Positions 38,009-61,732 of a stretch of DNA of 64,000 nt are shown here, piece by piece. The position numbers were made by a program, and so were the translations under genes. The notes under the pieces were generated by a model. It made no database searches and was not told the origin of the DNA. It saw only the letters and a program-made list of their open reading frames with translations. Numbering within the stretch: the stretch's first letter is position 1; each line of letters begins with the position of its first letter. Source of the DNA: Acidobacteriota bacterium (GTDB lineage Bacteria > Acidobacteriota > UBA6911 > JACQSX01); assembly GCA_016211105.1 (NCBI GenBank), contig JACQSX010000028.1, forward strand, positions 8,635-72,634. Direction: 5' to 3'.

Positions 38009-38347
38009 ATGAAACAACCGAAGACTGTAATTTTTTTGATTCTTTCACTATTCGTTATCGCAGGGTGGGTCGCAACACGGCGGAGCACGATTTCCGCCGA
38101 CGACAAGGCCGCGCAGCCGGCGCAGCTTGAGAAAATAACTTTTAAGGTTCAGGGGATGACCTGTGGAGGTTGCGCCCTGGCAGTAAAGAAGACTCTGGAA
38201 AAACAGCAGGGAGTCCGCAAAGCGGAAGTCTCACTGGAAAAAGGAGAAGCGATTGCCGAAGTAAAAAGAGGCAATGTCAGGCCTGAGGACCTGGCTGATG
38301 CGGTCACCAAGGTCGGGTACAAAACGACGGTGGTAAGGCTCAATTAG
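38009..38347 (+). CDS. Exported HMA-domain metal-binding protein (MerP/CopZ-like, CxxC)
   Basis: Signal/anchor helix; GMTCGGC. Confidence 0.9.
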   Translation: MKQPKTVIFLILSLFVIAGWVATRRSTISADDKAAQPAQLEKITFKVQGMTCGGCALAVKKTLEKQQGVRKAEVSLEKGEAIAEVKRGNVRPEDLADAVTKVGYKTTVVRLN

Positions 38348-38363
38348 TGGAGGATTCGACAAA

Positions 38364-38892
38364 ATGTCTCAGTGCTGTCCTACTGCAGCATCCTCGTGTT
38401 CAAACACTCAAGCGATGGAACGCCGCCTGGGAATTTGTCCCGAGTGCGGCAACAAGGGAACGAAAGTCCAACCGATTACGGTGCAAAGCCTGGTCCGGCC
38501 GGACCGCCACGTGGGAATCCAGGAAACCCAGTATCACTACTGCGCTACCCCTGAATGCGATGTCGTGTACTACTCGAATAGAGCCGATCTCGTTTTTCAG
38601 AAAAGAGATCTCACCGTCCGCATAGGAGCTAAGGAAAACGTTGATCCCATCCCTGTGTGCTATTGTTTTGGACACACGGAGCGATCCATCCAGGACGAAA
38701 TTGAAAGCACAGGCAGTTCCTCTGCCGAGGAAAAGATACGCGCCGAAATAAAGGGGGGGCAACTGCGCCTGTGAAAGGACCAATCCTGCGGGAACCTGTT
38801 GTCTGGGAGACGTGCGAGCCGTGACCCGACGTTTGCTTCACAGGAAAGCGGCCGCAGAAGATCGTTGCACTATTACGTGTGCGAAGATGTAA
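38364..38892 (+). pseudogene. CopZ N-terminal-like Zn/2Fe-2S protein, frameshifted at a G7 run
   Basis: CPEC, YCATPECDVVY, VCYCFG; after G7 (38753-38759) the shifted frame gives NCACERTNPAGTCCLGDV, matching paralog 52642. Confidence 0.82.
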
Positions 38893-44324: not shown

Positions 44325-44657
44325 ATGAAACGAAGGGATGTACTGTATTTTATGGGTCTTTCAGTAACAGGGCTTCTAACTCTTCGAGGGTTTGCCCAGG
44401 AAGAATCGGGTAAAGAGAAGAAAGAAGAGGTTGTAACGTTGGCTATCACCGGCATGACTTGAGATTCCTGTGTCCAAACGGTGCAGTCTGCACTGGAATC
44501 GGTTAAGGGGGTCAAAGAAGCCAAGGTATCGCTGGAGGATAATGAGGCGGTGGTGAAATTTGACCCGAGCATGGCAAAGGTCGAGGATCTCATTAAAGCC
44601 GTCAAAGATGCCAAGGGGATGAACCGCTACGACGCTGAGGTCAAAAAGAAAAAATAA
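44325..44657 (+). CDS. Predicted selenoprotein: Tat-type exported HMA protein, GMT-U-DS-C (110 aa)
   Basis: AGGAGG RBS, MKRRDVL leader, in-frame TGA 44460-44462 at first Cys of the HMA motif, intact HMA domain to TAA; not in ORF track. Confidence 0.88.
44463..44500 (+). promoter_or_regulatory. SECIS-like hairpin
   Basis: Upper stem CGGUGCA/UGCACUG with GUC loop, 23 nt between UGA and loop; lower GAUUC/GAAUC. Confidence 0.7.
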
Positions 44658-44731: not shown

Positions 44732-44972
44732 TTATCCCTTCTTCTCTGTGAGCATACGGTCCAGCGACCAAGCGCCGCCCCCTTTGATGAGCAGCGCGAT
44801 GACAATCGCCAGAGCCAGCAGGTGGTACTCAAAACCCTCGCCCTGCTGCGCGCCTGTCCAATTCATGAAGAATCCGTTCGAGAGATGCACGGCGAAAATG
44901 GCGACAAGCATCACGCACCCGATCCCGAGTGCGGCCACCCGGCTCAGCAAGCCGACGATGAGCCCCAGCGCG
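44732..44972 (-). pseudogene. DoxX-family C-terminal fragment
   Basis: GLIVGLLSRVAAL..VHLSNGFFMNW..GEGFEYHLL..GGGAWSLD; N-terminus missing. Confidence 0.8.
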
Positions 44973-45115
44973 CCGCCTGGCGAAGGTACGGGGTTGGGGC
45001 TCACCATTTGCTATGGGATTGTCAAGCGGTACCAGGGGAAAATCTGGGCACAGAAGTCCTCCCTTGGCGGCGCCGAATTCGTGGTGGAACTTCCAACTGC
45101 CCGATCCGCTTGCCC
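44970..45115 (+). pseudogene. Histidine kinase HATPase C-terminal fragment
   Basis: GEGTGLGLTICYGIVKRYQGKI..GGAEFVVELP. Confidence 0.78.
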
Positions 45116-45219
45116 GGCGGCAGACCCACCTTCTACTTCCAGCGAGAAAGTGGAAATCGGGTTGACAGCCGGCGCTGTACGGGTGGACTGGCGACGCATT
45201 AGCAATCCGAGGATAACCC

Positions 45220-45390
45220 ATGTCGAAAATCCTAGTGGTAGATGATGAGCCGGCAGTTACTCATTTGCTGAGGTGGTTCTTAGAGAAAAAGGGCCATGAA
45301 GTGGTCACGGCTGCCGACGGAGTTGAGGCGCTGGCCAGCGTGCAACAGGAAAATCCTAAAGTTGTGCTTCTTGATATCTCCATGCCCCTA
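45220..45390 (+). pseudogene. Response-regulator receiver N-terminal fragment, in frame with the next gene
   Basis: KILVVDDE..VVLLDISMP then breaks off. Confidence 0.75.
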
Positions 45391-45417
45391 GCCACGGCGG
45401 TAACAGGGGGAAACACC

Positions 45418-45801
45418 TTGAGCCATAGTCATGCGGATAAATGGGGACCGTTGGGCAGCATTTTTGCCGCTCTCTGCTGCTTGGGAGCGGCGCCTGCCTT
45501 AGCCGCGGTCTCCGCGTTGGGCTTGGGTTTTTTAATTAACGACATTATTCTGATTCCGCTCCTGGTGGTCTTTCTTGGCGCGACGATCTGGGCTCTCCGG
45601 AGAGATCGCAGCCGCCACGGGCGCACGGGACCGCAACGGCTTGCTTGGCTGGCGTCGCTTTTTACCGTGAGCGGTCTCTGGGTTTCCGGCGTGGTCGTGA
45701 GTTTGGGACTCATTCTGCTGGTGGCGGCCTCGATTTGGAATGTCGTTGTTACCTGGCAAACAAAATTCCCCCTTGACTCCGTACCTAAGTCCAGGGTTTA
45801 G
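45418..45801 (+). CDS. MerC-like membrane mercury transport protein
   Basis: TTG start with RBS; ADKWGPLGSIFAALCCLG; near-identical paralog at 53346. Confidence 0.75.
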   Translation: MSHSHADKWGPLGSIFAALCCLGAAPALAAVSALGLGFLINDIILIPLLVVFLGATIWALRRDRSRHGRTGPQRLAWLASLFTVSGLWVSGVVVSLGLILLVAASIWNVVVTWQTKFPLDSVPKSRV

Positions 45802-45804
45802 ACT
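45773..45804 (+). promoter_or_regulatory. MerR-type promoter/operator
   Basis: TTGACT-CCGTACCTAAGTCCAGGGTT(20 nt)-TAGACT; left half resembles the mer operator TTGACTCCGTAC. Confidence 0.8.
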
Positions 45805-45825
45805 CAGTTTGAAAGGAGAACGAGG

Positions 45826-46257
45826 GTGAACGGGCTGACTATTGGACATGTAGCCAAGCAAGCGGAGGTCCACGTTGAGACGGTCCGCTATTACGAGCGA
45901 CGCGGAATCCTGCCGGAGCCAGCGAGGAGCCCATCTGGCTACCGTCAGTACGACACAGAAACGGTGCGGCTTATTCGGTTCATCAAGCGCGCGCAGGACC
46001 TCGGCTTCACACTTGGCGAGATCAAGCAGTTAATTGAGCTTCGGAGAAACTCCAGGCGGAACAGATCCGCCGTAAGCGCACTTGCGACGGCAAAGCTCAG
46101 TGACATCGACAAGAAGATTCTCCAGTTGCAGGCGATGCGAAAAGCACTCGAACTTCTTGTTGATGCTTGCGCTTGCAAAGATCATAAGCTGGACTGTCCG
46201 ATCATCGAAGCGCTCAACGACGACGAAAAGGGAATGATCATCAAAAAGGAGAAATAA
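45826..46257 (+). CDS. MerR-family metal-responsive regulator 1
   Basis: VETVRYYERRG, FIKRAQDLGFTL, loop CACKDHKLDCPII. Confidence 0.93.
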   Translation: MNGLTIGHVAKQAEVHVETVRYYERRGILPEPARSPSGYRQYDTETVRLIRFIKRAQDLGFTLGEIKQLIELRRNSRRNRSAVSALATAKLSDIDKKILQLQAMRKALELLVDACACKDHKLDCPIIEALNDDEKGMIIKKEK

Positions 46258-46259
46258 CA

Positions 46260-46526
46260 ATGAAAAAACGAAGTGTTGAATTATTTACAGCAGCATGTCC
46301 CTGTTGTGACGAGACGATAAAGCTCGTCCAGGGCATGGTTTGTCCTAGCTGTGACGTTCAGATCCATGACATGCGTTCTGACAAGGCTGCTCAGGAGAAG
46401 GCAAAACAATACGGCATCGGCAGCGTTCCGGCGGTCGTGGTCGACGGACGACTGGCTGACTGCTGCTTGGGCCGGGGTGTCAGGGAAGCATCCCTGCGCG
46501 CCGCCGGCGTCGGCGTCCCCCTGTAG
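46260..46526 (+). CDS. Small Cys-rich thioredoxin-fold protein
   Basis: ELFTAACPCC, CPSC, YGIGSVPAVVVDG, CC. Confidence 0.82.
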   Translation: MKKRSVELFTAACPCCDETIKLVQGMVCPSCDVQIHDMRSDKAAQEKAKQYGIGSVPAVVVDGRLADCCLGRGVREASLRAAGVGVPL

Positions 46527-46606
46527 AAAACTGACAAATGAAGAAAATCTTGCACTGCGGACCGCCGCAGGGTCGAGGCGGCAGTGATCAATAGGGCTTT
46601 TTTACC

Positions 46607-47098
46607 ATGAGGAGTGATGTGAAAATGAATACCAGGACATTTCGACAGGACCTCGGCGCTACCTTAAGCGGCGGCTTGCGGCGGGCCACGGTGAGTGAAA
46701 TTCTCTCGGTCTACGGCGCCCTTCTTAGCTCGTTCGCCACCCTGGTTTGTTGCGCGCTGCCGGCACTGTTGGTTTTGCTCGGATTTGGAGTGACAAGCGT
46801 TCTGACTTTTTTAACGGCGATCCCAGGGTGGCAAGACTTCTCCAGCTACGAAATTTGGCTGTTTCCGCTGAGCGGAATCTTGTTGGCTGCGGGCTTTTAT
46901 TTCGCTTACTTTCGCCAAAACCCAGCCCAAGGTGAGGTTTGCGAAATTGCAGGGGGAGGCCAGGAAAGCGCCTGCTCTACCACCACACGCTGGAATCGCC
47001 GGCTTCTTTGGTTCTCAGTTTTCCTCTATAGCCTAGCCTTGGTAACAAACTTTTGGGGAATCGGTTGGATGAAAGCTCACGGGTACTTTGATCGCTAA
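46607..47098 (+). CDS. MerT-like membrane transporter
   Basis: TLVCCALP in TM1, CEI..SAC loop, 3 TM. Confidence 0.75.
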   Translation: MRSDVKMNTRTFRQDLGATLSGGLRRATVSEILSVYGALLSSFATLVCCALPALLVLLGFGVTSVLTFLTAIPGWQDFSSYEIWLFPLSGILLAAGFYFAYFRQNPAQGEVCEIAGGGQESACSTTTRWNRRLLWFSVFLYSLALVTNFWGIGWMKAHGYFDR

Positions 47099-47116
47099 GT
47101 ACCTCGAGGAGACCAC

Positions 47117-48031
47117 TTGAAAACAAAAAGATGGGTTATGTCTTTTCTGCTTTTGGGTTGCGTCGGACTTGCAGACCCAGGGCTGCGGGCCCAGGCGATC
47201 ATGGCGCCGAGTGGTAGAACGCTATTTAGCGGCGCGACTTTGGTGCGCTCGTTTGCTCAAGTCAACCACTTTGCCCTTCGCTCCGATGGAGATTCAAAGG
47301 AGATCACCCAGTACATTACGCCCCTTGCTGTTGTTTATGGGTTTCATCCTAAATGGACGGTCGTCGTGGCTCAGCCGTATGTAACCGTAGACATTACCAG
47401 CCACAGGGGGGATGAAACGCGACGAGAAAACATAAACGGTCTCGGCGATTCGCAGATGTTTATTCAATATGATGGGATTTATAGCCGCAACACCCCGGGA
47501 GGGCTGACCCGGCTCTCCGGTATTCTTGGTCTCCAGGCGCCCACGGGCGCACGACGGTTCTCCACCGGCGCTTTCGAATACACCGGGGGGCTAATTTTCG
47601 AAAAGCAGGCGAACTTGAAATATGTTTTCACTGCTGATTTTGAATACACCTTCGCTACTGAGAATGATCGCGGATTAACAGTGGGCGACCGAGCCAGGTT
47701 TGATGCCGTGCCAGGGTACTTTGTTATTTCTCGGGAGAAACCTCTTCCGGATGCGAGCTGGCTCCGGAAGGTCTATGATCGGGCGTTTCGCGACGGGGCA
47801 TATTTCATTTTGGAATTCAATGGCGCCTGGCAGGCCCATGCTCGTAGCCAGGGGACTGGGGTTGCCAACTCCGGCGGAACCACACTTTCGATTTCACCCG
47901 GCATCCAGTATTTTCCAGGCCGCAGCTTCTTGATCGAGTTTTCTTACGCGATTCCGGTGGCCAGGGAGCTAAATGGGACACAGCCCGAGCTGGAATCAAC
48001 TTTTCTCTTTGGTTTCCGCTATCTGTTTTAG
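47117..48031 (+). CDS. Outer-membrane transporter-like protein (MetA-pathway/SphA-type barrel)
   Basis: Signal peptide, GLGD, LQAPTG, NSGGTTLSISPGIQY, C-terminal YLF. Confidence 0.75.
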   Translation: MKTKRWVMSFLLLGCVGLADPGLRAQAIMAPSGRTLFSGATLVRSFAQVNHFALRSDGDSKEITQYITPLAVVYGFHPKWTVVVAQPYVTVDITSHRGDETRRENINGLGDSQMFIQYDGIYSRNTPGGLTRLSGILGLQAPTGARRFSTGAFEYTGGLIFEKQANLKYVFTADFEYTFATENDRGLTVGDRARFDAVPGYFVISREKPLPDASWLRKVYDRAFRDGAYFILEFNGAWQAHARSQGTGVANSGGTTLSISPGIQYFPGRSFLIEFSYAIPVARELNGTQPELESTFLFGFRYLF

Positions 48032-48085
48032 GTTCTGAATGAAACTCAGGGATGAGACAAGCAAGTCTTTTAGGAGGGTTTAATC

Positions 48086-48598
48086 ATGCGAAAGATAATC
48101 AGCCTGTGGCTTCTATTCGTGTCTATAAGCTTTCTTTCCACAGTGCCGGCCGCGGCCCAGGTGGTGAAGGCTATGGTCAAAATCAACGGCATGATATGAG
48201 GCCTCTGAGCTAAAGGGGCTCAGAAGGCCCTCGAACGCCTGGATGGCGTTGATCACGCAGAAGTGAATTTGGTAAAGGGAGAGGCGCAGGTCGTTCCCAA
48301 ACAGCGACAATCCTTCGATCCCATCCTAATTCCCAAAGCGGTCAGTGAAGCGGGCTTCACAGCACCTGAGGTCGTTGTGACCGTTGACGGGACTCTGATC
48401 AAGGGTGAGGAATTTCCCGAGCTGAATGTACCTGGGCTCGAACACTCATTTATGCTTGCTGGCGGAAAACAGGCCGCGGTGCTCGGAAAGCGCACCGACC
48501 TTACCGGGAAGAGAGTCCGTATAAGTGGCAAACTCCATCCCAGCCACGGCGACGCCCTACCAGGTCTAACAGTTGAAAACTTCCAGGTGGCGCCATGA
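48086..48598 (+). CDS. Predicted double-selenocysteine exported HMA protein, GMI-U-GL-U (170 aa)
   Basis: AGGAGG RBS, signal peptide (AAA-Q), in-frame TGAs at 48197 and 48206 at both Cys positions of GMxCxxC; same frame as ORF 48263-48598. Confidence 0.85.
48200..48252 (+). promoter_or_regulatory. Tandem hairpins (candidate SECIS elements) after the UxxU codons
   Basis: 12-bp stem 48200-48229 enclosing the second UGA; AACGCC-UGGAU-GGCGUU with 31 nt between second UGA and loop. Confidence 0.55.
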
Positions 48599-48741
48599 CT
48601 GCAAGGACTAAAAAATCTGAGAGTCAAGGTAGCAGGGACGTGCCTGCTATCCAGAAGCTCGAGGAATCTTTGCGTAGCCTGCATTTCTCGCAAGATTTGA
48701 ATGCGACTGGAAGCTGCTACATCCCCGCTCGTTGGCTGGTG

Positions 48742-48851
48742 GTAGAGACGCCCCGGCGGGGCGTCTCTACGATATCGACATCGCCAAGTGAGTTTTCACA
48801 GAGTAAACACCCTGGCATTCGCTCCAACAGGAAATGTTTTGTGAGAAATGC
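48742..48851 (+). repeat. About 110-bp REP-containing repeat, copy A (inverted copy at 61624-61732)
   Basis: GTAGAGACGCCCCGGCGGGGCGTCTCTAC hairpin plus about 80 bp of shared flank. Confidence 0.85.
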
Positions 48852-48854
48852 GGC

Positions 48855-49250
48855 CTAGCGAGGCAGCAGAGGCCGGATCAGCTCGACCGGGACACCAAAA
48901 TTACTCCCCGCAAAACCAGCCAAGATAGCGAAGTTGATACCAATGACTTCCCCCCGAGAGTTGAAGATCGGTCCGCCGCTGCCTCCCTGTGTCGTCTGGG
49001 CGTCGTAGACCAGCCGGTCGGGGAGCACATCTCCAAGGTGTCCTTGAGTGGCGATAGGACGAATCAAGTTGCGGCGAGCCAGCGCCTGCGCCAGTTGTTC
49101 CAGACTGGAAGGTCCTTAGGAAATGACACTATCGATGGTTTGCTTGCTGTAGCGGGCCAGCATAGCTTCATAGCCGGCTGGATACCCCAACAGCAGGATC
49201 GGTTCCCCGGACCTTGGTTTAGCCCCGGACAAACTCAATACGGTTCGACG
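48855..49250 (-). pseudogene. Trypsin-like serine protease C-terminal fragment with in-frame TAA
   Basis: LLGYP..YDAQTTQGGSGGPIFNSRGEVIGIN; stop at 49116-49118. Confidence 0.78.
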
Positions 49251-49251
49251 G

Positions 49252-49617
49252 GCGCCCGTTACGTTTGAACTCAAGAACTGGCTGGACCATCCCTTCGAGT
49301 CCTTATTGCATGGGGGTTGGCATGCTCCTGTAATCGTGGTCAACGGCAAGCTTTTCAGTCAGGGAGTGGTTCCGAAACCGGATCGCCTTGAACACAGGAT
49401 TCGCGAGGCGTTGGCAGAACGGCACTCTCGCTGCCCGGTTTGCGGCAACGTTGTATTTGGCGAGGACTATTCGAGCCATCGAAGAGAGGAAACGAAACGG
49501 CGCGTTATCAAGCTTATTCAGGCAGAGCACCCCGAATGGGTGGGTGCGGACGGCATGTGCCCCCAATGCCTGGCTGCCTATGAACGACGGCTGGAGCGGG
49601 GAGAGCTCGTTGTTTAG
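49252..49617 (+). pseudogene. 5'-truncated thioredoxin-fold protein with Zn-finger-like tail
   Basis: FELKNWLDHPFESLLHGGWHAPVIVVNGKLFSQG..CPVC..CPQC; N-terminus replaced by the protease fragment. Confidence 0.6.
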
Positions 49618-51415: not shown

Positions 51416-51904
51416 ATGAAGACAGAAAGGGCTATGAGACAAGGGGTATATCGCATCGGAGACGTTGCCAAGGAACTGGGTCTGACGCCCCAGGCGCTTC
51501 GCTACTACGAACAGGAGGGGCTTATTCCTAAACCTCAGCGAACGCCATCGGGCTATCGAATCTTTTCCGAAGACGCTCGCGCGCGATTGTTGTTTTTGAA
51601 ACGTGCCCAGCAGTTCGGCTTCAAACTCGACGAGATCAAGACTTTATTGGGAGTGAAGGCCAACCGCCGTGGCTCCTGTGCACAGGTCAAATCGCTGCTG
51701 GATGCCAAGCTGGTTGAGCTGGAGGAGCGATTCAAGCAGATAAAACAATTGCAAACCGATTTGCTGCGATTGCGAAAGGAGTGTGAAGCAGCCTTTTCCG
51801 TCGATGCCTCCTGTCCGGTGATCATAGATTTTGCCAAAGACGTTTCCGGCAGTGTCAGCGCGCAAAACATTCCCAAGAGACGGCGAGAGATTTCGTCTCT
51901 ATGA
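51416..51904 (+). CDS. MerR-family metal-responsive regulator 2
   Basis: ALRYYEQEGL, GSCAQV (third Cys present), CEAAFSVDASCPVI; start 51416 or 51434. Confidence 0.93.
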   Translation: MKTERAMRQGVYRIGDVAKELGLTPQALRYYEQEGLIPKPQRTPSGYRIFSEDARARLLFLKRAQQFGFKLDEIKTLLGVKANRRGSCAQVKSLLDAKLVELEERFKQIKQLQTDLLRLRKECEAAFSVDASCPVIIDFAKDVSGSVSAQNIPKRRREISSL

Positions 51905-52236
51905 GCGATAAGCCTATTTTGTTTGGAGCATTAATCGCATCCTTTACCGCCTCGCTCTGTTGCGTTTTGCCGGTCGCCGTAGCGGTGCTGGGAATCGGTA
52001 GTGTCAGCGCCGCGGCGATCTTTGAGGGCTTCCGCCTGCCACTGTCGCTGCTGACCTTTGCATTGCTGGGAGTTGGGTTTTATTTTAACTATCGTCCGGC
52101 GAAGGAAAAGTGCGAGCCAGGAAGTGCCTGCGCCGTTCCCGCCCACCGAAGGCGCACCCGGATAATTCTGTGGCTGATCACATTGGCGGCACTGGCGTTT
52201 CTTGCATTTCCCGACTACTCAAGGTTCTTGGTCTAA
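51901..52236 (+). CDS. merT: MerT-family transporter
   Basis: ASLCCVLP, CEPGSACAVP, 3 TM. Confidence 0.82.
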   Translation: MSDKPILFGALIASFTASLCCVLPVAVAVLGIGSVSAAAIFEGFRLPLSLLTFALLGVGFYFNYRPAKEKCEPGSACAVPAHRRRTRIILWLITLAALAFLAFPDYSRFLV

Positions 52237-52260
52237 GACTTCGTTTTGAGGAGAGCGTTT

Positions 52261-52596
52261 ATGAAAGGACTCAGTATTAGCATTTTCCTGTTACTGGTGT
52301 TGGGGCTGGCGGCCTGGGTGACTCTGCGACCCACCCCGGCGTCCAGCGACGACAAAGCCGCGGGTTCTCCGCAGTTGGAAAAAGTGGTTTTTAAGGTGGA
52401 AGGGATGACTTGTGGTGGCTGCGCTATGGGAGTGAAAAGGACCCTGGAGAAGCAGACGGGAGTGCAGAAGGCGGAAGTTTCCCTTGAAAAGGGCGAGGCG
52501 ATTGCCGAAGTGGAAAAAGGTAGGGTCAATCCCACAGCCTTGGCCGCTGCGGTAACTCGGTTCGGATACAAGACCACAGTGCTGAAAGTCAACTAG
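52261..52596 (+). CDS. Exported HMA protein (MerP-like, CxxC)
   Basis: GMTCGGC; paralog of 38009-38347. Confidence 0.9.
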   Translation: MKGLSISIFLLLVLGLAAWVTLRPTPASSDDKAAGSPQLEKVVFKVEGMTCGGCAMGVKRTLEKQTGVQKAEVSLEKGEAIAEVEKGRVNPTALAAAVTRFGYKTTVLKVN

Positions 52597-52641
52597 TGTC
52601 CCGGGACACTAGCGGTCGTCTTGTAAAGAGGAGAAGAAGAA

Positions 52642-53196
52642 ATGTCAGATTGCTGTTCTACCGCTTCGCCGGCTGCGAGCCGCTCAGCGAGGATTTGTCC
52701 CGCCTGCCAAAACAAGGGAAAACCAGTGCAGCTCATTACCGTGCGGAGCCTGGTGCGGCCGGAACGTAGGCCAGAAATTCAAGAAATCCAGCACTACTAT
52801 TGTCCCACGCCCACTTGTGACATTGTGTACTTCTCGGCCGCCACAACTTCTCGCTTTCATAAGGACAATCTCACCGTCCGCGTGGGCGCCAAGGAAACTG
52901 TCGACCCCATCCCAGTCTGCTACTGCTTTGGACATACGGAGGGATCGATCCATCAGGAAATCGAGGCCACGGGAAAGTCGTCTGCTGAGGAAAGCATACG
53001 GGCCGCCATTAAGGCGGGAGAGTGTACCTGCGAGACAAGCAATCCAGCAGGCGCCTGCTGCTTGGGCGACGTTCGAGCTGCGATCGACCTTTGGCTTCGT
53101 AAGATAAATGCTCGCTACCAGAGCGAGGAAGTGATGACAGCAGTGGACAACAGAACCAGCGCCGCATGTTGTGAACCAACACAATGCAGCCGGTGA
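52642..53196 (+). CDS. CopZ N-terminal-like Zn/2Fe-2S protein
   Basis: CPAC, YCPTPTCDIVYF, VCYCFG, CTCETSNPAGACC. Confidence 0.85.
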   Translation: MSDCCSTASPAASRSARICPACQNKGKPVQLITVRSLVRPERRPEIQEIQHYYCPTPTCDIVYFSAATTSRFHKDNLTVRVGAKETVDPIPVCYCFGHTEGSIHQEIEATGKSSAEESIRAAIKAGECTCETSNPAGACCLGDVRAAIDLWLRKINARYQSEEVMTAVDNRTSAACCEPTQCSR

Positions 53197-53345
53197 CAGT
53201 TCTTGCTCGGTGGTCCTCGGTTGGCTTCAATCGAGTGGGCAGGGTAGCCGCACAAAGGTCGACGAAGCGACAATTAGGGACAAAGCTGAAATACGTTCGT
53301 CCCCGGCTTGCCTGCTAAGCTGCAAAAAGGAAGGGGAGAAATGAT

Positions 53346-53717
53346 ATGAGCGAAGTTCACGCAGATAAGTGGGGACCCCTGGGCAGTATCTTCGCCGGCC
53401 TCTGTTGCCTGGGAGCGGCGCCTCTTCTGGCGGGCCTGTCAGCCTTGGGATTGGAGTTTTTGATTCATGATACAATTCTGATTCCTCTGTTAATCTTCTT
53501 TCTCGGCGTGACGATTTGGGCACTGCATCGAAATCGAAGCCGCTGCGGCACTGCTGGGCCCCTGTGGCTGGTGTGGCTCGCGGCTGTTCTTACGCTGGGG
53601 AGCCTCTGGATCTCTGGTGTGGCAGTAGGCCTGGGACTGCTTCTTTTGGTATCGGCTTCGATCTGGAACGCAATAGCAACCAAGCGTTGTGAACCAACGA
53701 GAGGAATGATCAGCTAA
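53346..53717 (+). CDS. MerC-like membrane mercury transport protein
   Basis: ADKWGPLGSIFAGLCCLG, 4 TM. Confidence 0.78.
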   Translation: MSEVHADKWGPLGSIFAGLCCLGAAPLLAGLSALGLEFLIHDTILIPLLIFFLGVTIWALHRNRSRCGTAGPLWLVWLAAVLTLGSLWISGVAVGLGLLLLVSASIWNAIATKRCEPTRGMIS

Positions 53718-53767
53718 GCGGGTTAGCAGGCTCATGCCGACAATGATTTAGGATTTAGGAAGAACCG

Positions 53768-54351
53768 ATGAGCCCTGAAGAAGTCAGTACCACACAGGCG
53801 CCGAGGTATGGCCCGAGCACCATTCACGCGGGTCTAGTGCTGTTTGCTATCGTGGGAGCCCTGGTTGTGTACAAGTGGGAAACAGCTGTTGGGATCCTTC
53901 AAAATGTTAGCGCCACAGGCGTGATGCCGACGCGGGCTGATGTTATTCCACTTGGTCGTGCTTCCGACAGTCTCGATCGATGAATTATTTCGCTGTCATC
54001 TGGCCCGCATTGCTCTTTGGTATCCTCATTGGTGGGAGTGTTCACGCATTTGTTTCTCCGCACTGGTTGACACGGGCACTGAGTGGCAGTCCGGGCCGAG
54101 CCCAGCTTGCCGCTGGGCTCGCTGGAACGCCGCTGATGCTTTGTTCCTGCTGTGTCGCTCCAATTTTCACAAGTGTATACGAGAGAACGTGGCGTTACGG
54201 TCCATCGTTGGCAGTGATGCTGGCCGCTCCTTCGCTAAATCCTGCGGCGCTCACCCTTACATTCATGCTTTTTGGACTCCGCATTGGGACTATGCGTGTG
54301 GCAATGGGGATCGCAGCCGTCTTCTTGATGGGAACGGTGTTAGATCGATAG
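53768..54351 (+). pseudogene. DUF318/ArsP-like permease, frameshifted and truncated
   Basis: Frame change near 53975; GTPLMLCSCC, LAAPSLNP; ends after about half the usual length. Confidence 0.7.
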
Positions 54352-54494
54352 GAGAATTCCAGAAATCCGCTTTACTCCCCCATTCCGTTTGTGAATGGTA
54401 GTTTGTGGACAGTATCCGGAATGACAACTCGCACCGGGCCAGGAAGTGTCACCTTCAAGATGGAGGTGAAATAACTCAACCGAGGGGAAGGCCA

Positions 54495-54626
54495 ATGATT
54501 CTTGCGCAGATGGAACCAATGGGCGGAATGAGGGGCATGATGTGGGGCATGTCTATCTACTGGGTCTTAGGCTTAGTCGTATTAGTTCTGCTGATCGTTT
54601 TGCTCGTGAAGATGATTCGGAAATAA
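54495..54626 (+). CDS. Small Met/Gly-rich single-TM protein
   Basis: RBS; MILAQMEPMGGMRGMMWGMSIYWVLGLVVLVLLIVLLVKMIRK. Confidence 0.55.
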   Translation: MILAQMEPMGGMRGMMWGMSIYWVLGLVVLVLLIVLLVKMIRK

Positions 54627-54825
54627 AGCGGCGATCTGTGGTTAGGTCGACTCTTTGGTGGAGCGGTTGCGCTATCACAATATGGCTGCCGGCGGTCTGT
54701 GGGTCGGCTCCGGCGGACCTCACGGCGGATAACAGCCGTGTGAGTTGTGGTCCAAAGCAGCGAAAAAATCGCCTGGGCAGAATCCTGAGTCCTCCAATGG
54801 TATTTAAAAGGAAGGAGATAGCCAC

Positions 54826-56487
54826 ATGAGGAATCGCAAACATAGTACTCTGCGAATCGAAGGTATGACCTGCGACGGCTGCGGGCGCCACGTCATAGCC
54901 GCGCTTAAAGCTGTGCAGGGAGTCGAAGAAGCGCAGGTTGGAAACTGGCGCTCCGGACGAGCTACGGTTATTTCCGACGAGAGCGCCGAGAGCAGAGCGC
55001 TCGTGGGAGCGGTGGAGAAGGCAGGCTATCGGGCCGTGCTCGAGGAACATCGTCCCCTGGAGGGGCAGAGTCGCGTGCCTTCTAGTAAGGAAGAATTTGA
55101 TCTGATGATTGTCGGTGGAGGGTCTGCGGCCTTTGCAGCCGCCATCAAAGGCGCAGAACTGGGCGCCAAGATCGCTATCGTTGAAAAGGGAACCATTGGC
55201 GGTACCTGCGTCAACATCGGTTGTGTTCCATCCAAGACACTCATCCAGGCGGCCGAAATCTGCTATCACTCGTCCTATTCCGATTTTGAAGGGCTCACGG
55301 CCTGCCCGCCTCCGTCAGATTGGCAGCGGGTGGTGCGGCAAAAGGATGAACTCGTTGCTGCTCTACGTGAGGAGAAATACGTTCATGTTGCCGAGTCTTA
55401 CCCCAATATCAAGATCATCAAGGGACGCGCGAAACTGCTGGGCGGGCGTCAGCTTGTTGTGGATGGCCGCACCTACACCTCGGAGAAAATTCTGCTTGCC
55501 ACTGGATCGCAACCGTGGGCGCCGGATATTCCGGGTTTGAAAGAGGCAGGATTTCTGGACAGCACCGACGCTTTGAGCTTAACCGCGCTTCCTCAATCCA
55601 TGTTGGTGATAGGAGGGGGCTCCATTGGATTGGAGCTGGCCCAATTATTTTCCCGTTTTGGCGTGCGCGTCATGGTGATGGAAAGCGGTCCGCGCGTCGC
55701 AATGACTGAAGAACCCGAGATCGGCGACGCGCTAGTGAGATATTTGGAAAGTGAAAAAATTCGCATTTGTGCCGATGTGAAGATCGAAAGCGTTGAGTAC
55801 AAGAATGGCGACTATCGCGTTCATGCAGTTATCGATGGTCACGACGAAGAATGTGTGGCCGAGCAGTTGCTGGTCGCAACTGGCCGTCGCCCTGTGACGG
55901 CTGGGTTAGGTCTCGAACCGGCCGGCGTAAAGGTCGGGGTTAAAGGGGAAATCCAAGTGGACGAACATTTGCAGACCAGCAATTCAGACATCTACGCCGC
56001 AGGCGATTGCATCGGCGATCCTATGTATGTCTATGTGGCTGCTTACGGTGGAGGACTAGCGGCTGAAAACGCGCTCAATGGAGCCGGCAAGGTTTACGAC
56101 CTGTTTGCGCTTCCTCATGTCACCTTCACCGACCCGCAGGTCTCCAGCGTCGGTTTGACGGAAAAGCGGGCAAAGGATTCAGGTTTCAAAGTGAAAACTT
56201 CCACGCTGCCGTTGAAGCATGTGCCCCGAGCACTTGCTTCCCGTAACATCAAGGGGCTGATTAAACTCGTGGCCGAAGAAGACACGCAACGGATCCTGGG
56301 CGCCCATGCGATGGCCGCCAGTGCCGGCGAGATCATCCAGGAAATGACGCTGGCCATACGATTTGGTCTGACCGTGAAAGATGTTGTGGAGACATTCCAC
56401 CCCTACTTGACTATGGTGGAAGGGATCAAGTTGGCAGCGCTCACCTTCAGTCGTGACGTGGCAAAGCTTTCCTGCTGCGCAGGCTAA
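54826..56487 (+). CDS. merA: Mercuric reductase with N-terminal HMA domain
   Basis: GMTCDGC; GGTCVNIGCVPSK; FHPYLTMVEG; C-terminal LSCCAG. Confidence 0.96.
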   Translation: MRNRKHSTLRIEGMTCDGCGRHVIAALKAVQGVEEAQVGNWRSGRATVISDESAESRALVGAVEKAGYRAVLEEHRPLEGQSRVPSSKEEFDLMIVGGGSAAFAAAIKGAELGAKIAIVEKGTIGGTCVNIGCVPSKTLIQAAEICYHSSYSDFEGLTACPPPSDWQRVVRQKDELVAALREEKYVHVAESYPNIKIIKGRAKLLGGRQLVVDGRTYTSEKILLATGSQPWAPDIPGLKEAGFLDSTDALSLTALPQSMLVIGGGSIGLELAQLFSRFGVRVMVMESGPRVAMTEEPEIGDALVRYLESEKIRICADVKIESVEYKNGDYRVHAVIDGHDEECVAEQLLVATGRRPVTAGLGLEPAGVKVGVKGEIQVDEHLQTSNSDIYAAGDCIGDPMYVYVAAYGGGLAAENALNGAGKVYDLFALPHVTFTDPQVSSVGLTEKRAKDSGFKVKTSTLPLKHVPRALASRNIKGLIKLVAEEDTQRILGAHAMAASAGEIIQEMTLAIRFGLTVKDVVETFHPYLTMVEGIKLAALTFSRDVAKLSCCAG

Positions 56488-61623: not shown

Positions 61624-61732
61624 GCATTTCTACCAAAACATTTCCTGTTGGAGGGAATCCCGGCGCGTTTACTGTGTGAAACACACTTGGCGATGTCGAT
61701 ATTGTAGAGACGCCCCGCCGGGGCGTCTCTAC
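61624..61732 (-). repeat. About 110-bp REP-containing repeat, copy B
   Basis: Reverse-complement match to 48742-48851. Confidence 0.85.

What the first reader, a model, noticed from the sequence alone, without database searches (positions are those of the whole stretch)
48086..48598. Hidden exported HMA protein with both metal-binding cysteines encoded by TGA (UxxU double selenoprotein)
Seen: RBS plus ATG 48086, a signal peptide, then VKINGMI-TGA-GL-TGA-AKGAQKALERLDGVDHAEVNLVKGEA..AVSEAGF, an otherwise intact HMA fold followed by a beta-rich C-terminal domain. The TGAs (48197, 48206) fall exactly on the two Cys of GMxCxxC. Known: bacterial UGA plus a 3' SECIS encodes Sec, and selenolates bind Hg(II) more tightly than thiolates. 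Inference: two independent nonsense mutations at just these codons is unlikely, so this is probably a di-Sec metal chelator or diselenide redox protein. It is the last gene of a MerR-type operon, and standard gene callers cut it to a meaningless 111-aa ORF.
Basis: partly seen in the sequence, partly recalled or inferred. Interest (0 to 1): 0.95.

Follow-up and report, generated by a model that had tools for sequence, protein, structure and literature searches.

The report
Exported two-selenocysteine metal-binding protein gene
This is a real gene for a secreted mercury-type metal-binding protein whose two metal-holding residues are both selenocysteine, a known kind of protein in a widespread, routinely mis-annotated form that also hints how bacteria read two closely spaced UGA codons.

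Summary
Observation confirmed. ATG 48086 opens a 170-codon frame with in-frame TGAs at 48197 and 48206, exactly on the two Cys positions of the HMA motif (GMIUGLU). It ends at TGA 48596.

It is not a pseudogene. The genome has selA, selB, a Sec-containing selD and one tRNA-Sec. I inspected the same TGA..TGA motif in 24 genomes. Relatives with UxxC, CxxU and CxxC occur in the same family. dN/dS downstream of the TGAs is 0.20-0.49. Contigs of public runs carry both TGAs.

Two hairpins follow the second TGA (48215-48231, 48234-48250). They are conserved with compensatory changes in UxxU genes and absent from Cys forms.

The protein has a signal peptide, an HMA domain and a ~75-residue C-terminal domain, probably an OB fold. 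It closes a MerR / Trx-like / MerT-like / outer-membrane-channel cluster, 3 kb upstream of a full mer operon.

UxxU HMA selenoproteins are already catalogued (NCBIfam NF041115), but this protein scores below that cut-off. The exported two-domain form, its outer-membrane-channel and TlpA-like neighbours, and the tandem hairpins were not found in print.

Verdict: a new variant of a known kind. The metal is unproven; Hg(II) is my best guess. Selenium insertion is inferred.

The parts
48072..48077 (+). Shine-Dalgarno-like AGGAGG, 8 nt before the ATG
   Evidence: read directly
48086..48598 (+). coding sequence of the UxxU HMA protein: 170 codons plus the TGA stop at 48596-48598
   Evidence: homologues end at the same place
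48086..48157 (+). signal peptide, residues 1-24 (MRK + hydrophobic core + AAA/Q); no lipobox Cys
   Evidence: my reading; N-termini of the same type in all homologues; no predictor run
48176..48358 (+). HMA domain, residues 31-91
   Evidence: Pfam PF00403 E 7.9e-11; PDB profile matches to CopZ, MerP and ATPase HMA domains only in this part (run on homologues)
48197..48199 (+). UGA 1, first ligand position of GMxCxxC
48206..48208 (+). UGA 2, second ligand position
48215..48231 (+). hairpin 1: GGGGCU / loop CAGAA / GGCCCU. The loop starts 21 nt after UGA1 and 12 nt after UGA2
   Evidence: Conserved position in 24 of 24 UxxU genes with 5 of 6 pairs showing double changes. Present in 66 of 66 distinct sequences of a set not selected for it
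48234..48250 (+). hairpin 2: AACGCC / loop UGGAU / GGCGUU. The loop starts 31 nt after UGA2 and 40 nt after UGA1
   Evidence: (z -3.73). 94% of cells paired in UxxU genes against 34.5% in UxxC and 43.8% in CxxC genes
48368..48595 (+). C-terminal domain (~76 residues) with an H-x-x-H loop (LHPSHGD); probably an OB fold
   Evidence: no Pfam family above cut-off. Its profile hits an OB-repeat protein. Best PDB hit is the AspRS OB domain, E 0.078, not significant
48742..48770 (.). REP-like perfect palindrome just after the gene, with no T-run
   Evidence: about 42 sites in the genome, 20 exact, 0 for the reversed control pattern
47117..48031 (+). outer-membrane beta-barrel gene (Phenol_MetA_deg type), immediately upstream
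   Evidence: PF13557 E 1.3e-8. The same kind of gene lies next to the HMA gene in 14 of 23 other UxxU loci and in 56 of 75 named loci
46607..47098 (+). MerT-like membrane protein (CC in the first helix, a Cys pair in the loop)
   Evidence: 34% identity, E 1e-11, to the window's MerT at 51901-52236, which matches PF02411
46260..46526 (+). small Cys-rich thioredoxin-fold protein (CPCC, CPSC, CC)
45826..46257 (+). MerR-family metal-sensing regulator (Cys115, Cys117, Cys124)
   Evidence: Pfam. NCBIfam best is MerR TIGR02051 at 135.6 bits against a cut-off of 150.85; CueR 128.3 against 147.4
45220..45801 (+). MerC-like protein fused in frame to the first 57 residues of a response regulator

Best explanation
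48086-48598 is a working gene for an exported, MerP-like heavy-metal-binding protein. Both metal-ligand positions (GMxCxxC) are encoded by UGA and are most likely read as selenocysteine by the genome's SelA/SelB/SelD/tRNA-Sec system.

Two short hairpins follow the second UGA. The loop of hairpin 1 lies 21 nt after UGA1. The loop of hairpin 2 lies 31 nt after UGA2. I read them as tandem SECIS elements, one for each UGA (inferred).

The protein is then exported by its signal peptide (inferred). Its HMA domain holds a soft metal ion between two selenolates, as MerP does between two thiolates (inferred by homology). Hg(II) is the best guess for this copy, because the cluster holds MerR-, MerT- and MerC-like genes and a complete mer operon with MerA lies 3 kb downstream. 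Cu(I), Ag(I) or Au are not excluded.

The extra C-terminal domain is probably an OB fold. The conserved outer-membrane channel gene next door suggests that the protein works at or with that channel (inferred). In many relatives a TlpA-like periplasmic reductase would keep the Sec pair reduced (inferred).

Shown: the sequence, its conservation with TGA or Cys at both sites, the Sec machinery, the conserved hairpins and the gene neighbourhoods. Not shown: selenium in the protein, the metal, the fold and any contact.
For: Sec machinery. selB scores 361.9 bits (cut-off 242.25) and selA 522.8 (cut-off 267.9). selD scores 360.1 (cut-off 125) and has one in-frame TGA of its own. tRNA-Sec scores 72.7 bits, anticodon tca. 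It is the only tRNA with a UCA anticodon among 44 tRNAs.

TGA is an ordinary stop in this genome: it ends 828 of 1663 stop-to-stop ORFs of 300 codons or more.

Sec/Cys pairs. Among family loci inspected I counted 24 UxxU, 12 UxxC, 2 CxxU and 15 CxxC. In the protein collection, four full-length relatives carry W at both sites, that is TGA read by another code. About a hundred are ORFs of 111-135 aa that start just after the second TGA. P0032 is a Cys form with the same C-terminal domain.

Selection. dN/dS downstream of TGA2 is 0.20-0.49 in 6 pairs; 2 further pairs were saturated.

Hairpins. On 24 UxxU genes, 88.5% of cells pair against 37-51% when the partners are slid. 7 of 13 pairs show changes on both sides. 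The covariation score is 0.320 against 0.187 for shuffles, reached by 0 of 500. Hairpins 1 and 2 pair in 81.9% and 94.0% of cells in UxxU genes, 51.4% and 34.5% in UxxC genes, and 45.6% and 43.8% in CxxC genes. UxxC genes have their own single hairpin, 94.4% paired, with its loop 17 nt after the UGA. The hairpin 2 loop has G in its first two positions in 24 of 24 genes. Hairpin 1 is present in 66 of 66 distinct sequences of an independent set. Both spacings fall within the published 16-37 nt rule (PMC13188914, passage seen).

Context.

Contigs of three runs carry both TGAs unchanged.
Against: No experiment or RNA data: no RNA run holds the stretch.

In the window the loop of hairpin 1 (CAGAA) lacks the G expected in the first two loop positions. 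That G is present in 18 of 24 genes and in 35 of 66.

Hairpin 2 lies 40 nt from UGA1, outside the 16-37 nt rule. Hairpin 1 lies only 12 nt from UGA2. A single SECIS serving both UGAs, as proposed for UxxU hydrogenases (PMC13582414), is therefore not excluded.

The hairpin 2 stem overlaps the conserved peptide R-L/Q-x-G-V, so part of its conservation may be protein-driven.

The regulator is below the curated cut-off of every metal class.

Other UxxU loci rarely hold mer genes. MerT-like genes are found in 0 of 23 loci and in 1-2 of 75, MerA in 6 of 75. Hg may therefore be special to this island.

Hg-Se bonds are stronger than Hg-S bonds (general chemistry, recalled), which argues against easy hand-off to a thiol-based MerT.

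The frequent TlpA-like neighbour fits a redox role as well. The fold of the C-terminal domain was not predicted.
Confidence: 0.7

Rival explanations
1. Same selenoprotein, but its job is redox, not metal carriage. A periplasmic diselenide/diselenol oxidoreductase would cycle with a TlpA-like thioredoxin, with the HMA fold used as a scaffold.
For: A TlpA-like thioredoxin gene (ATWCxPC) follows the gene in 37 of 75 named UxxU loci and occurs in 41 of 75. The window's island also holds DUF255-thioredoxin, deiodinase/AhpC-like and Trx-fold genes. Most catalogued bacterial selenoproteins are redox proteins with UxxC or CxxU motifs (PMC13188914 and PMC9312934, passages seen).
Against: All sequence matches of the Sec-bearing domain are to metal-binding HMA proteins: CopZ, MerP, P-type ATPase domains, MerA N-terminus. 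The window's cluster is MerR/MerT/MerC-like. From recall, TlpA-type proteins are known as reductants of periplasmic copper chaperones, so the neighbour fits a metallochaperone too.
Confidence: 0.17
2. The UGAs are decoded, but one or both as cysteine (by a SelC*-type tRNA-ReC) or by near-cognate read-through. The product would then be CxxC, UxxC or CxxU rather than UxxU.
For: tRNA-ReC-like tRNAs were reported enriched in genomes with UxxU hydrogenases (PMC13582414, passage seen). The loop of hairpin 1 in the window departs from the G rule.
Against: aragorn finds one tRNA-SeC(tca), one ordinary tRNA-Cys(gca) and no further tRNA with a UCA anticodon among 44 tRNAs. The only other Rfam tRNA-Sec match over the cut-off is a tRNA-Ser(tga). 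The genome is 93.6% complete, so absence is not proven.
Confidence: 0.06
3. One SECIS (hairpin 2) serves both UGAs. Hairpin 1 would be a spacer, a pausing element or a fold without SelB binding.
For: Hairpin 2 meets the published stem, loop and G criteria in 24 of 24 genes, hairpin 1 only in 18 of 24. A single-SECIS reading was proposed for UxxU hydrogenases.
Against: Hairpin 1 is kept at one position through at least four unrelated stem sequences. It lies where the only hairpin of the UxxC relatives lies. Hairpin 2 appears only when the second codon is UGA.
Confidence: 0.3
4. Pseudogene: two nonsense mutations in a decaying MerP-like gene, or a sequencing or assembly error.
For: Table-11 gene calling gives only a 111-aa fragment.
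Against: The same two TGAs were inspected in 24 genomes and in 75 further loci. dN/dS is 0.20-0.49 downstream. The frame is intact to the family's usual end. Contigs of three runs carry both TGAs.
Confidence: 0.02

Closest known systems
NCBIfam NF041115 'UxxU_metal_bind', metal-binding (seleno)protein. [quoted passage not shown]
   Same: HMA fold with both ligand positions of GMxCxxC as Sec. Catalogued as a predicted selenoprotein.
   Different: The model is a 74-position single domain. This protein scores 43.4 bits against a cut-off of 95. It also has a signal peptide, a ~75-residue C-terminal domain and an outer-membrane-channel partner. No NCBIfam model covers its full length.
MerP (TIGR02052), periplasmic Hg(II)-binding protein of mer operons
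   Same: Signal peptide plus HMA domain in a cluster with MerR-, MerT- and MerC-like genes. An ordinary MerP (CGGC) lies at 52246-52596 in the same window.
   Different: MerP has Cys, not Sec, and no C-terminal domain. This protein scores 32.3 bits against a cut-off of 92.55. A 'MerP' selenoprotein with 2 sequences is listed for the GOS data (PMC2398784) but is not described in the passages I saw.
[quoted passage not shown]
   Same: Two UGA codons 9 nt apart on a metal-binding CxxC motif. UxxU, CxxU, UxxC and CxxC relatives are interleaved, and the same question of how both UGAs are decoded arises.
   Different: An unrelated protein. In the passages I saw, the authors describe one downstream SECIS and suggest it may serve both codons. 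Here two conserved hairpins are present.
NF045683 MerT/CopZ fusion-like heavy metal transport selenoprotein, and MerT-family selenoproteins
   Same: Sec in mercury-type transport proteins.
   Different: This protein scores 27 bits against a cut-off of 375, matches only in the HMA part, and has no membrane domain.
CusF and BOF-type periplasmic OB-fold proteins (recalled, not tested)
   Same: A small periplasmic beta-barrel domain next to metal handling. The C-terminal domain here gives weak OB-fold signals.
   Different: No significant sequence match, and no Met/Trp metal site. The comparison rests on recall and an unproven fold.

Membership tests
Bacterial selenoprotein (UGA decoded as Sec) | In-frame UGA aligned with Cys in homologues | tested here: met
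   Both positions: 24 UxxU, 12 UxxC, 2 CxxU and 15 CxxC family loci
Bacterial selenoprotein (UGA decoded as Sec) | selA, selB, selC and selD in the genome | tested here: met
   all over their curated cut-offs
Bacterial selenoprotein (UGA decoded as Sec) | SECIS: 4-16 bp stem, 3-9 nt loop, G in the first two loop positions, 16-37 nt from the UGA (rule as quoted in PMC13188914) | tested here: inconclusive
   Hairpin 2 meets all points for UGA2 (31 nt; loop UGGAU). [quoted passage not shown] Both are conserved with covariation
Bacterial selenoprotein (UGA decoded as Sec) | Coding constraint continues past the UGA | tested here: met
   dN/dS 0.20-0.49 in 6 pairs; the C-terminal domain is conserved
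Bacterial selenoprotein (UGA decoded as Sec) | Selenium found in the polypeptide | not testable with these tools
   needs 75Se labelling or mass spectrometry
HMA domain (Pfam PF00403) | Score over the gathering cut-off and a GMxCxxC loop | tested here: met
   42.6 bits against 24.8; GMIUGLU with U read as C
NF041115 UxxU_metal_bind (equivalog) | Score of at least 95 bits over a ~74-residue single-domain protein | tested here: not met
   43.4 bits, or 31.1 bits on the DNA. The protein is 170 aa with two extra parts
MerP (TIGR02052) | Score of at least 92.55 bits | tested here: not met
   32.3 bits
MerP (TIGR02052) | Periplasmic HMA protein encoded with merR, merT and merA | tested here: inconclusive
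   MerR-like, MerT-like and MerC-like genes are in the cluster; MerA is only in the neighbouring operon. The regulator is below the MerR cut-off
OB fold (C-terminal domain) | Five-stranded barrel, beta1-3 / helix / beta4-5 | tested here: inconclusive
   hhalign probability 78% to an OB-repeat protein. PDB best hit is the AspRS OB domain at E 0.078. No Pfam family.

The most novel reading that the evidence does not exclude
Each of the two UGA codons, only 9 nt apart, has its own SECIS. A tandem pair of SelB-binding hairpins is packed into 36 nt of coding sequence (48215-48250). Hairpin 1 would act while UGA1 is decoded and melt as the ribosome advances. Hairpin 2 would then serve UGA2. This would be a natural rule for inserting two neighbouring selenocysteines in bacteria. 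The product would be a widespread periplasmic diselenolate metal trap working with an outer-membrane channel.
Probability: 0.35. Interest if true: 0.75.

Novelty: new variant of a known kind. Interest (0 to 1): 0.6.

Why it matters
Three reasons.

1. Annotation. A whole family of exported Sec proteins is stored in public collections as 111-135-aa 'hypothetical' or 'HMA domain' fragments. The family is common in Acidobacteriota and is also seen in records labelled Planctomycetota, Methylomirabilis, Nitrospiraceae, Armatimonadota and others. Selenium use and metal handling in soil and groundwater bacteria are therefore under-counted.

2. Mechanism. How bacteria decode two UGAs 9 nt apart is an open point; a 2026 paper leaves it at 'possibly one SECIS'. 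This family offers a clean test case, with two conserved hairpins and natural UxxC, CxxU and CxxC controls.

3. Chemistry. A diselenolate site in the periplasm would be an extreme soft-metal binder. It bears on mercury-selenium antagonism and could be used as a capture module.

Tried and rejected
**Other genetic code.** Rejected. TGA is the commonest stop of long ORFs (828 of 1663). The gene itself ends in TGA. Only tRNA-SeC reads UCA. The W in P0002-P0005 is a gene caller's code choice.

**Pseudogene or error.** Rejected; see the rival explanations.

**Rfam.** Nothing but a tRNA-Met in the window, and nothing at 48100-48350 even at E 10. I found no bacterial SECIS family match there.

**Promoter and terminator scan of 45000-49300.** 0 promoter-like sites; 9 terminator-like sites against 5.2 expected, none at the operon's ends. 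Uninformative.

**RNA evidence.** No RNA holder is listed; nothing can be said about expression.

**C-terminal domain.**
- No Pfam family. DUF4431 and DUF5818 hit at E 0.016 and 0.038 in the window; DUF5818 hits 3 of 37 homologues.
- No PDB sequence match below E 0.078.
- No longer proteins found with it by word search: 879 candidates, none scored (weak evidence).
- A profile search of 1.84 billion representatives gave 320 hits at E<=0.001. Most are the family's own fragments. A few are giant Ig-repeat proteins, which I take as low-complexity strand matches. One is an OB-repeat protein.

**Outer-membrane protein.** No PDB relative at E<=1 and no useful paper.

**The search for related loci with A4.** Failed for lack of a conserved stretch. 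I replaced it by a DNA pattern scan. That pattern contains hairpin 2, so that set says nothing about how often hairpin 2 occurs.

**Tree (quick method, 40 rows, short protein).** Six state changes. One origin of UxxU is not excluded. No direction can be given.

**Literature.** Searches found no description of an exported two-domain UxxU HMA protein, of its outer-membrane-channel or TlpA-like partners, or of tandem bacterial SECIS elements. The 24 listed hits concern eukaryotic or archaeal systems as far as the listing shows. For that call I saw the listing only. The supplementary SECIS figures of PMC13582414 and the sequence lists behind the reviews may bear on this.

**Genomes marked unpublished.** They gave only generic HMA matches, which I did not use.

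**Papers.** I saw passages only (find mode) of PMC13188914, PMC9312934, PMC2398784, PMC13582414 and bioRxiv 10.1101/2022.07.06.499078. The following are recalled and were not seen:
- the 2007 Olavius symbiont selenoproteome paper;
- the MerP Cys-Hg-Cys site;
- TlpA as reductant of copper chaperones;
- CusF as an OB fold;
- the E. coli fdhF SECIS spacing;
- the Cys pattern of metal-sensing MerR regulators.
Full report
**1. What is in the sequence.**
- A Shine-Dalgarno-like AGGAGG (48072-48077) precedes ATG 48086.
- Read with TGA as U, the frame runs 170 codons to TGA 48596. It gives a signal-peptide-like N-terminus (MRKIISLWLLFVSISFLSTVPAAA/Q), then VKINGMIUGLUAKGAQKALERLDGV....
- The two in-frame TGAs are at 48197-48199 and 48206-48208.
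- Pfam places an HMA domain on residues 31-91 (E 7.9e-11, 42.6 bits, cut-off 24.8). The TGAs therefore sit on the two ligand positions of GMxCxxC.
- Under table 11 only a 111-aa ORF (48263-48598) is listed. That fragment is what the protein collection holds for this window (P0012).

**2. Is the genome able to read UGA as Sec, and only there?**
- selB (361.9 bits, cut-off 242.25), selA (522.8, cut-off 267.9) and selD (360.1, cut-off 125) are present. selD has an in-frame TGA of its own.
- One tRNA-Sec is present (Rfam 72.7 bits; aragorn anticodon tca).
- A whole-genome aragorn run finds 44 tRNAs: one tRNA-SeC, one ordinary tRNA-Cys, one tRNA-Trp(cca), and no other reader of UGA.
- TGA ends 828 of 1663 long stop-to-stop ORFs, so there is no genome-wide reassignment.

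**3. Relatives.**
- A six-frame search of 61 related genomes found 8 genomes whose best full-length match has TGA at both positions, the window's own among them.
- A profile search of 401 genomes of the phylum listed 21 rows with two TGAs. It also listed rows with one TGA or none (150 rows were listed and 70 were not).
- I read the loci one by one. All share the signal peptide, the HMA domain and a ~75-residue C-terminal domain. The motif is UxxU in 24 genomes, UxxC in 12 loci, CxxU in 2 and CxxC in 15.
- The UxxU genes fall into sequence-distinct groups: GMxUxLUAYGAEKAL (the window's group), GMTUNFUAYGV, GMTUGLUAYGI and GATUATUGYSL.
- In the 5.8-billion-protein collection the family appears in three guises. 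Four full-length proteins have W at both sites. About a hundred ORFs of 111-135 aa start just after the second TGA; some are named 'HMA domain-containing protein' from Acidobacteria or Angelobacter MAGs. A few are true Cys forms, such as P0032.
- The ESM Atlas holds clusters of 60-277 such fragments.
- dN/dS downstream of the second TGA is 0.20-0.49 in six pairs; two more pairs were saturated.
- Contigs of four public groundwater-metagenome runs of one study cover the gene. Three carry both TGAs with no differing letter. The fourth differs in 4 letters; the only one listed is a synonymous C>G at 48232.
- A pseudogene or an error is excluded.

**4. RNA structure.**
- A gapless alignment of the 24 UxxU genes (A2) shows two hairpins after the second TGA. 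In the window they are GGGGCU-CAGAA-GGCCCU (48215-48231) and AACGCC-UGGAU-GGCGUU (48234-48250).
- Across the 24 genes 88.5% of cells pair, against 37-51% with slid partners. 7 of 13 pairs change on both sides. The covariation score (0.320) is reached by 0 of 500 shuffles. The structure was derived from these same sequences, which favours it somewhat.
- Cross-controls help. Hairpins 1 and 2 pair in 81.9% and 94.0% of cells in UxxU genes, 51.4% and 34.5% in UxxC genes, and 45.6% and 43.8% in CxxC genes.
- The UxxC genes have one hairpin of their own (CACGC-CGUGM-GCGUG). It is 94.4% paired with 4 of 6 pairs compensated. It pairs in only 37.5% of cells in UxxU genes and 33.3% in CxxC genes.
- The hairpin 1 loop starts 20-22 nt after UGA1. 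The hairpin 2 loop starts 31-32 nt after UGA2. Both lie within the published 16-37 nt window (rule quoted in PMC13188914).
- Hairpin 2 always has G in the first two loop positions (24 of 24). Hairpin 1 has it in 18 of 24, and not in the window.
- A DNA pattern made of the UxxU frame plus hairpin 2 found at least 119 places in 185,579 species genomes; I expected about 4 by chance, my own estimate. Of the 80 loci returned, 75 are signal-peptide HMA UxxU genes, and 72 of those have at least 105 residues after the motif.
- That set was not selected for hairpin 1, yet hairpin 1 is present in 66 of 66 distinct sequences, with many different stems. Mean folding energy is -10.0 against -3.5 kcal/mol for shuffles. 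The G rule is met in 35 of 66.
- In the window the lowest-energy fold of 48197-48256 extends hairpin 1 into a long stem that includes both UGAs (-31.5 kcal/mol, z -4.89). This extension is not shared by the other genes.
- The pattern occurs once in the window's genome.

**5. Reading of the hairpins.**
- The simplest account is one SECIS per UGA, packed in tandem.
- Hairpin 1 sits where the only hairpin of the UxxC relatives sits. Hairpin 2 is present only when the second codon is UGA. In the two CxxU genes a CGUGA-loop hairpin lies about 20 nt after their single UGA (by eye, two close relatives only).
- A 2026 paper on UxxU hydrogenases leaves open whether one SECIS serves both codons, and reports more tRNA-ReC in such genomes (PMC13582414). 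No such tRNA was found here.
- The single-SECIS reading, with hairpin 2 alone, stays possible.

**6. Gene context.**
- The cluster, all on the + strand, reads as follows:
  - a MerC-like protein fused to a response-regulator stub (45220-45801);
  - a MerR-family regulator (45826-46257);
  - a Cys-rich Trx-fold protein (46260-46526; CPCC, CPSC, CC);
  - a MerT-like membrane protein (46607-47098; 34% identical to the window's true MerT);
  - an outer-membrane barrel of the Phenol_MetA_deg type (47117-48031);
  - the UxxU gene.
- The regulator is nearest to MerR (135.6 bits) and CueR (128.3), but below both cut-offs.
- Downstream come a REP-like palindrome (48742-48770; about 42 copies in the genome) and ORFs without family. 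A complete mer operon follows at 51416-56487, with MerA at 568 bits.
- Among the other UxxU loci of the phylum sample, the outer-membrane gene is adjacent in 14 of 23 and MerT-like genes in 0 of 23. The UxxC clade instead sits beside MerT-like genes in 6 of 12.
- In the 75 named loci an outer-membrane gene of this kind is present in 56, a TlpA-like thioredoxin in 41 (37 just downstream on the same strand), both in 36 and neither in 14.
- The conserved core is therefore channel + UxxU protein, often followed by a periplasmic reductase. The mer-like setting is particular to this island.

**7. The C-terminal domain.**
- No Pfam or NCBIfam model covers it, and PDB sequence matches stop at the HMA domain.
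- Its pattern of strands reads as beta1-3 / helix / beta4-5. That is my reading of the alignment.
- Its profile hits a protein made of OB-fold repeats (hhalign probability 78%). Its best PDB match, not significant, is the OB domain of an aspartyl-tRNA synthetase (E 0.078).
- I call it a probable OB fold. The window's clade has an H-x-x-H loop (LHPSHGD) before the last strand.

**8. Comparison with what is known.**
- NCBIfam NF041115 'UxxU_metal_bind, metal-binding (seleno)protein' and two reviews list a UxxU HMA selenoprotein with two Sec. Selenoprotein forms of MerT, a P-type ATPase and 'MerP' are also listed. The kind is therefore known.
- This protein fails the NF041115 cut-off (43.4 against 95 bits) and the MerP cut-off (32.3 against 92.55).
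- It also differs by export, by the second domain and by its partners.
- My literature searches found no description of this subfamily or of tandem bacterial SECIS elements.

**9. Verdict.**
- This is a genuine, conserved, routinely mis-called di-Sec gene.
- It is a new variant of a known kind, not a new kind.
- The most interesting product of the follow-up is the pair of conserved hairpins. With the natural UxxC, CxxU and CxxC controls, they make the decoding of two neighbouring UGAs directly testable.
- Function is most likely a periplasmic soft-metal binder. Hg(II) is the best guess for this island. The protein probably works with the neighbouring outer-membrane channel. A redox role is the main rival.

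Noticed in passing
window 44325-44657 (+): A second HMA selenoprotein gene. It has a Tat-like signal (RRDVL), the motif GMTUDSC with TGA at 44460-44462, and a 7-bp hairpin with loop GUC starting 23 nt after the UGA. It scores PF00403 E 6.7e-17 and NF041115 66.7 bits, below the cut-off of 95.
   Followed up: partly
window 48742-48770 and 61704-61732: A REP-like 29-nt perfect palindrome (GTAGAGACGCCCC-GGC-GGGGCGTCTCTAC). It has about 42 sites in the genome, 20 of them exact, and none for the reversed control. Word depth is 3500-5000x in two of the four groundwater runs.
   Followed up: partly
window 44732-45801: A mosaic of gene pieces. On the + strand there is only the C-terminal end of a histidine kinase (HATPase_c). 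On the - strand there is a DoxX-like piece. The first 57 residues of a response regulator are fused in frame to a MerC-like protein that lacks its own start. The mer-like cassette seems to have been inserted into a two-component operon.
   Followed up: no
window 38364 to about 38780 (+): A paralogue of the CopZ-N-terminal/2Fe-2S-type gene at 52642-53190 (NF047645, 134 bits). It loses similarity after 'IKGG' and meets a TGA near 38769. This is either a frameshift or a Sec-containing form (related NF045877 'CU' selenoproteins exist); I did not resolve it.
   Followed up: no
window 51416-56487 (+): A complete mercury-resistance operon: MerR, MerT, MerP (CGGC), a CopZ-N-terminal Fe-S protein, MerC, a piece of an ArsP-type permease, and MerA (568 bits, cut-off 454). 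A further MerP-like gene lies at about 38009-38347.
   Followed up: partly
L035, L060 and 39 other loci of L109-L188: A TlpA-like thioredoxin (ATWCxPC) follows the UxxU gene on the same strand in 37 of 75 named loci and occurs in 41 of 75. With the upstream outer-membrane barrel it forms a three-gene cassette in 36 of 75. The window's genome has its nearest such gene outside the window (contig C16:74756-75235).
   Followed up: partly
L033 (G005): An HMA domain with GMTUAGC is fused to a thioredoxin-like domain that carries another in-frame TGA (SPTUSMC). This is a two-Sec fusion protein of a different architecture.
   Followed up: no
L064 / L175 (G424; a Vicinamibacterales record): A UxxU HMA plus C-terminal domain continues into a further ~400 residues in the same frame. 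This is a longer fused form.
   Followed up: no
window 48216-48259: Word depth in two groundwater runs rises three- to four-fold exactly over the two hairpins, and contigs break there. This is as expected if other community members share this conserved stretch.
   Followed up: no
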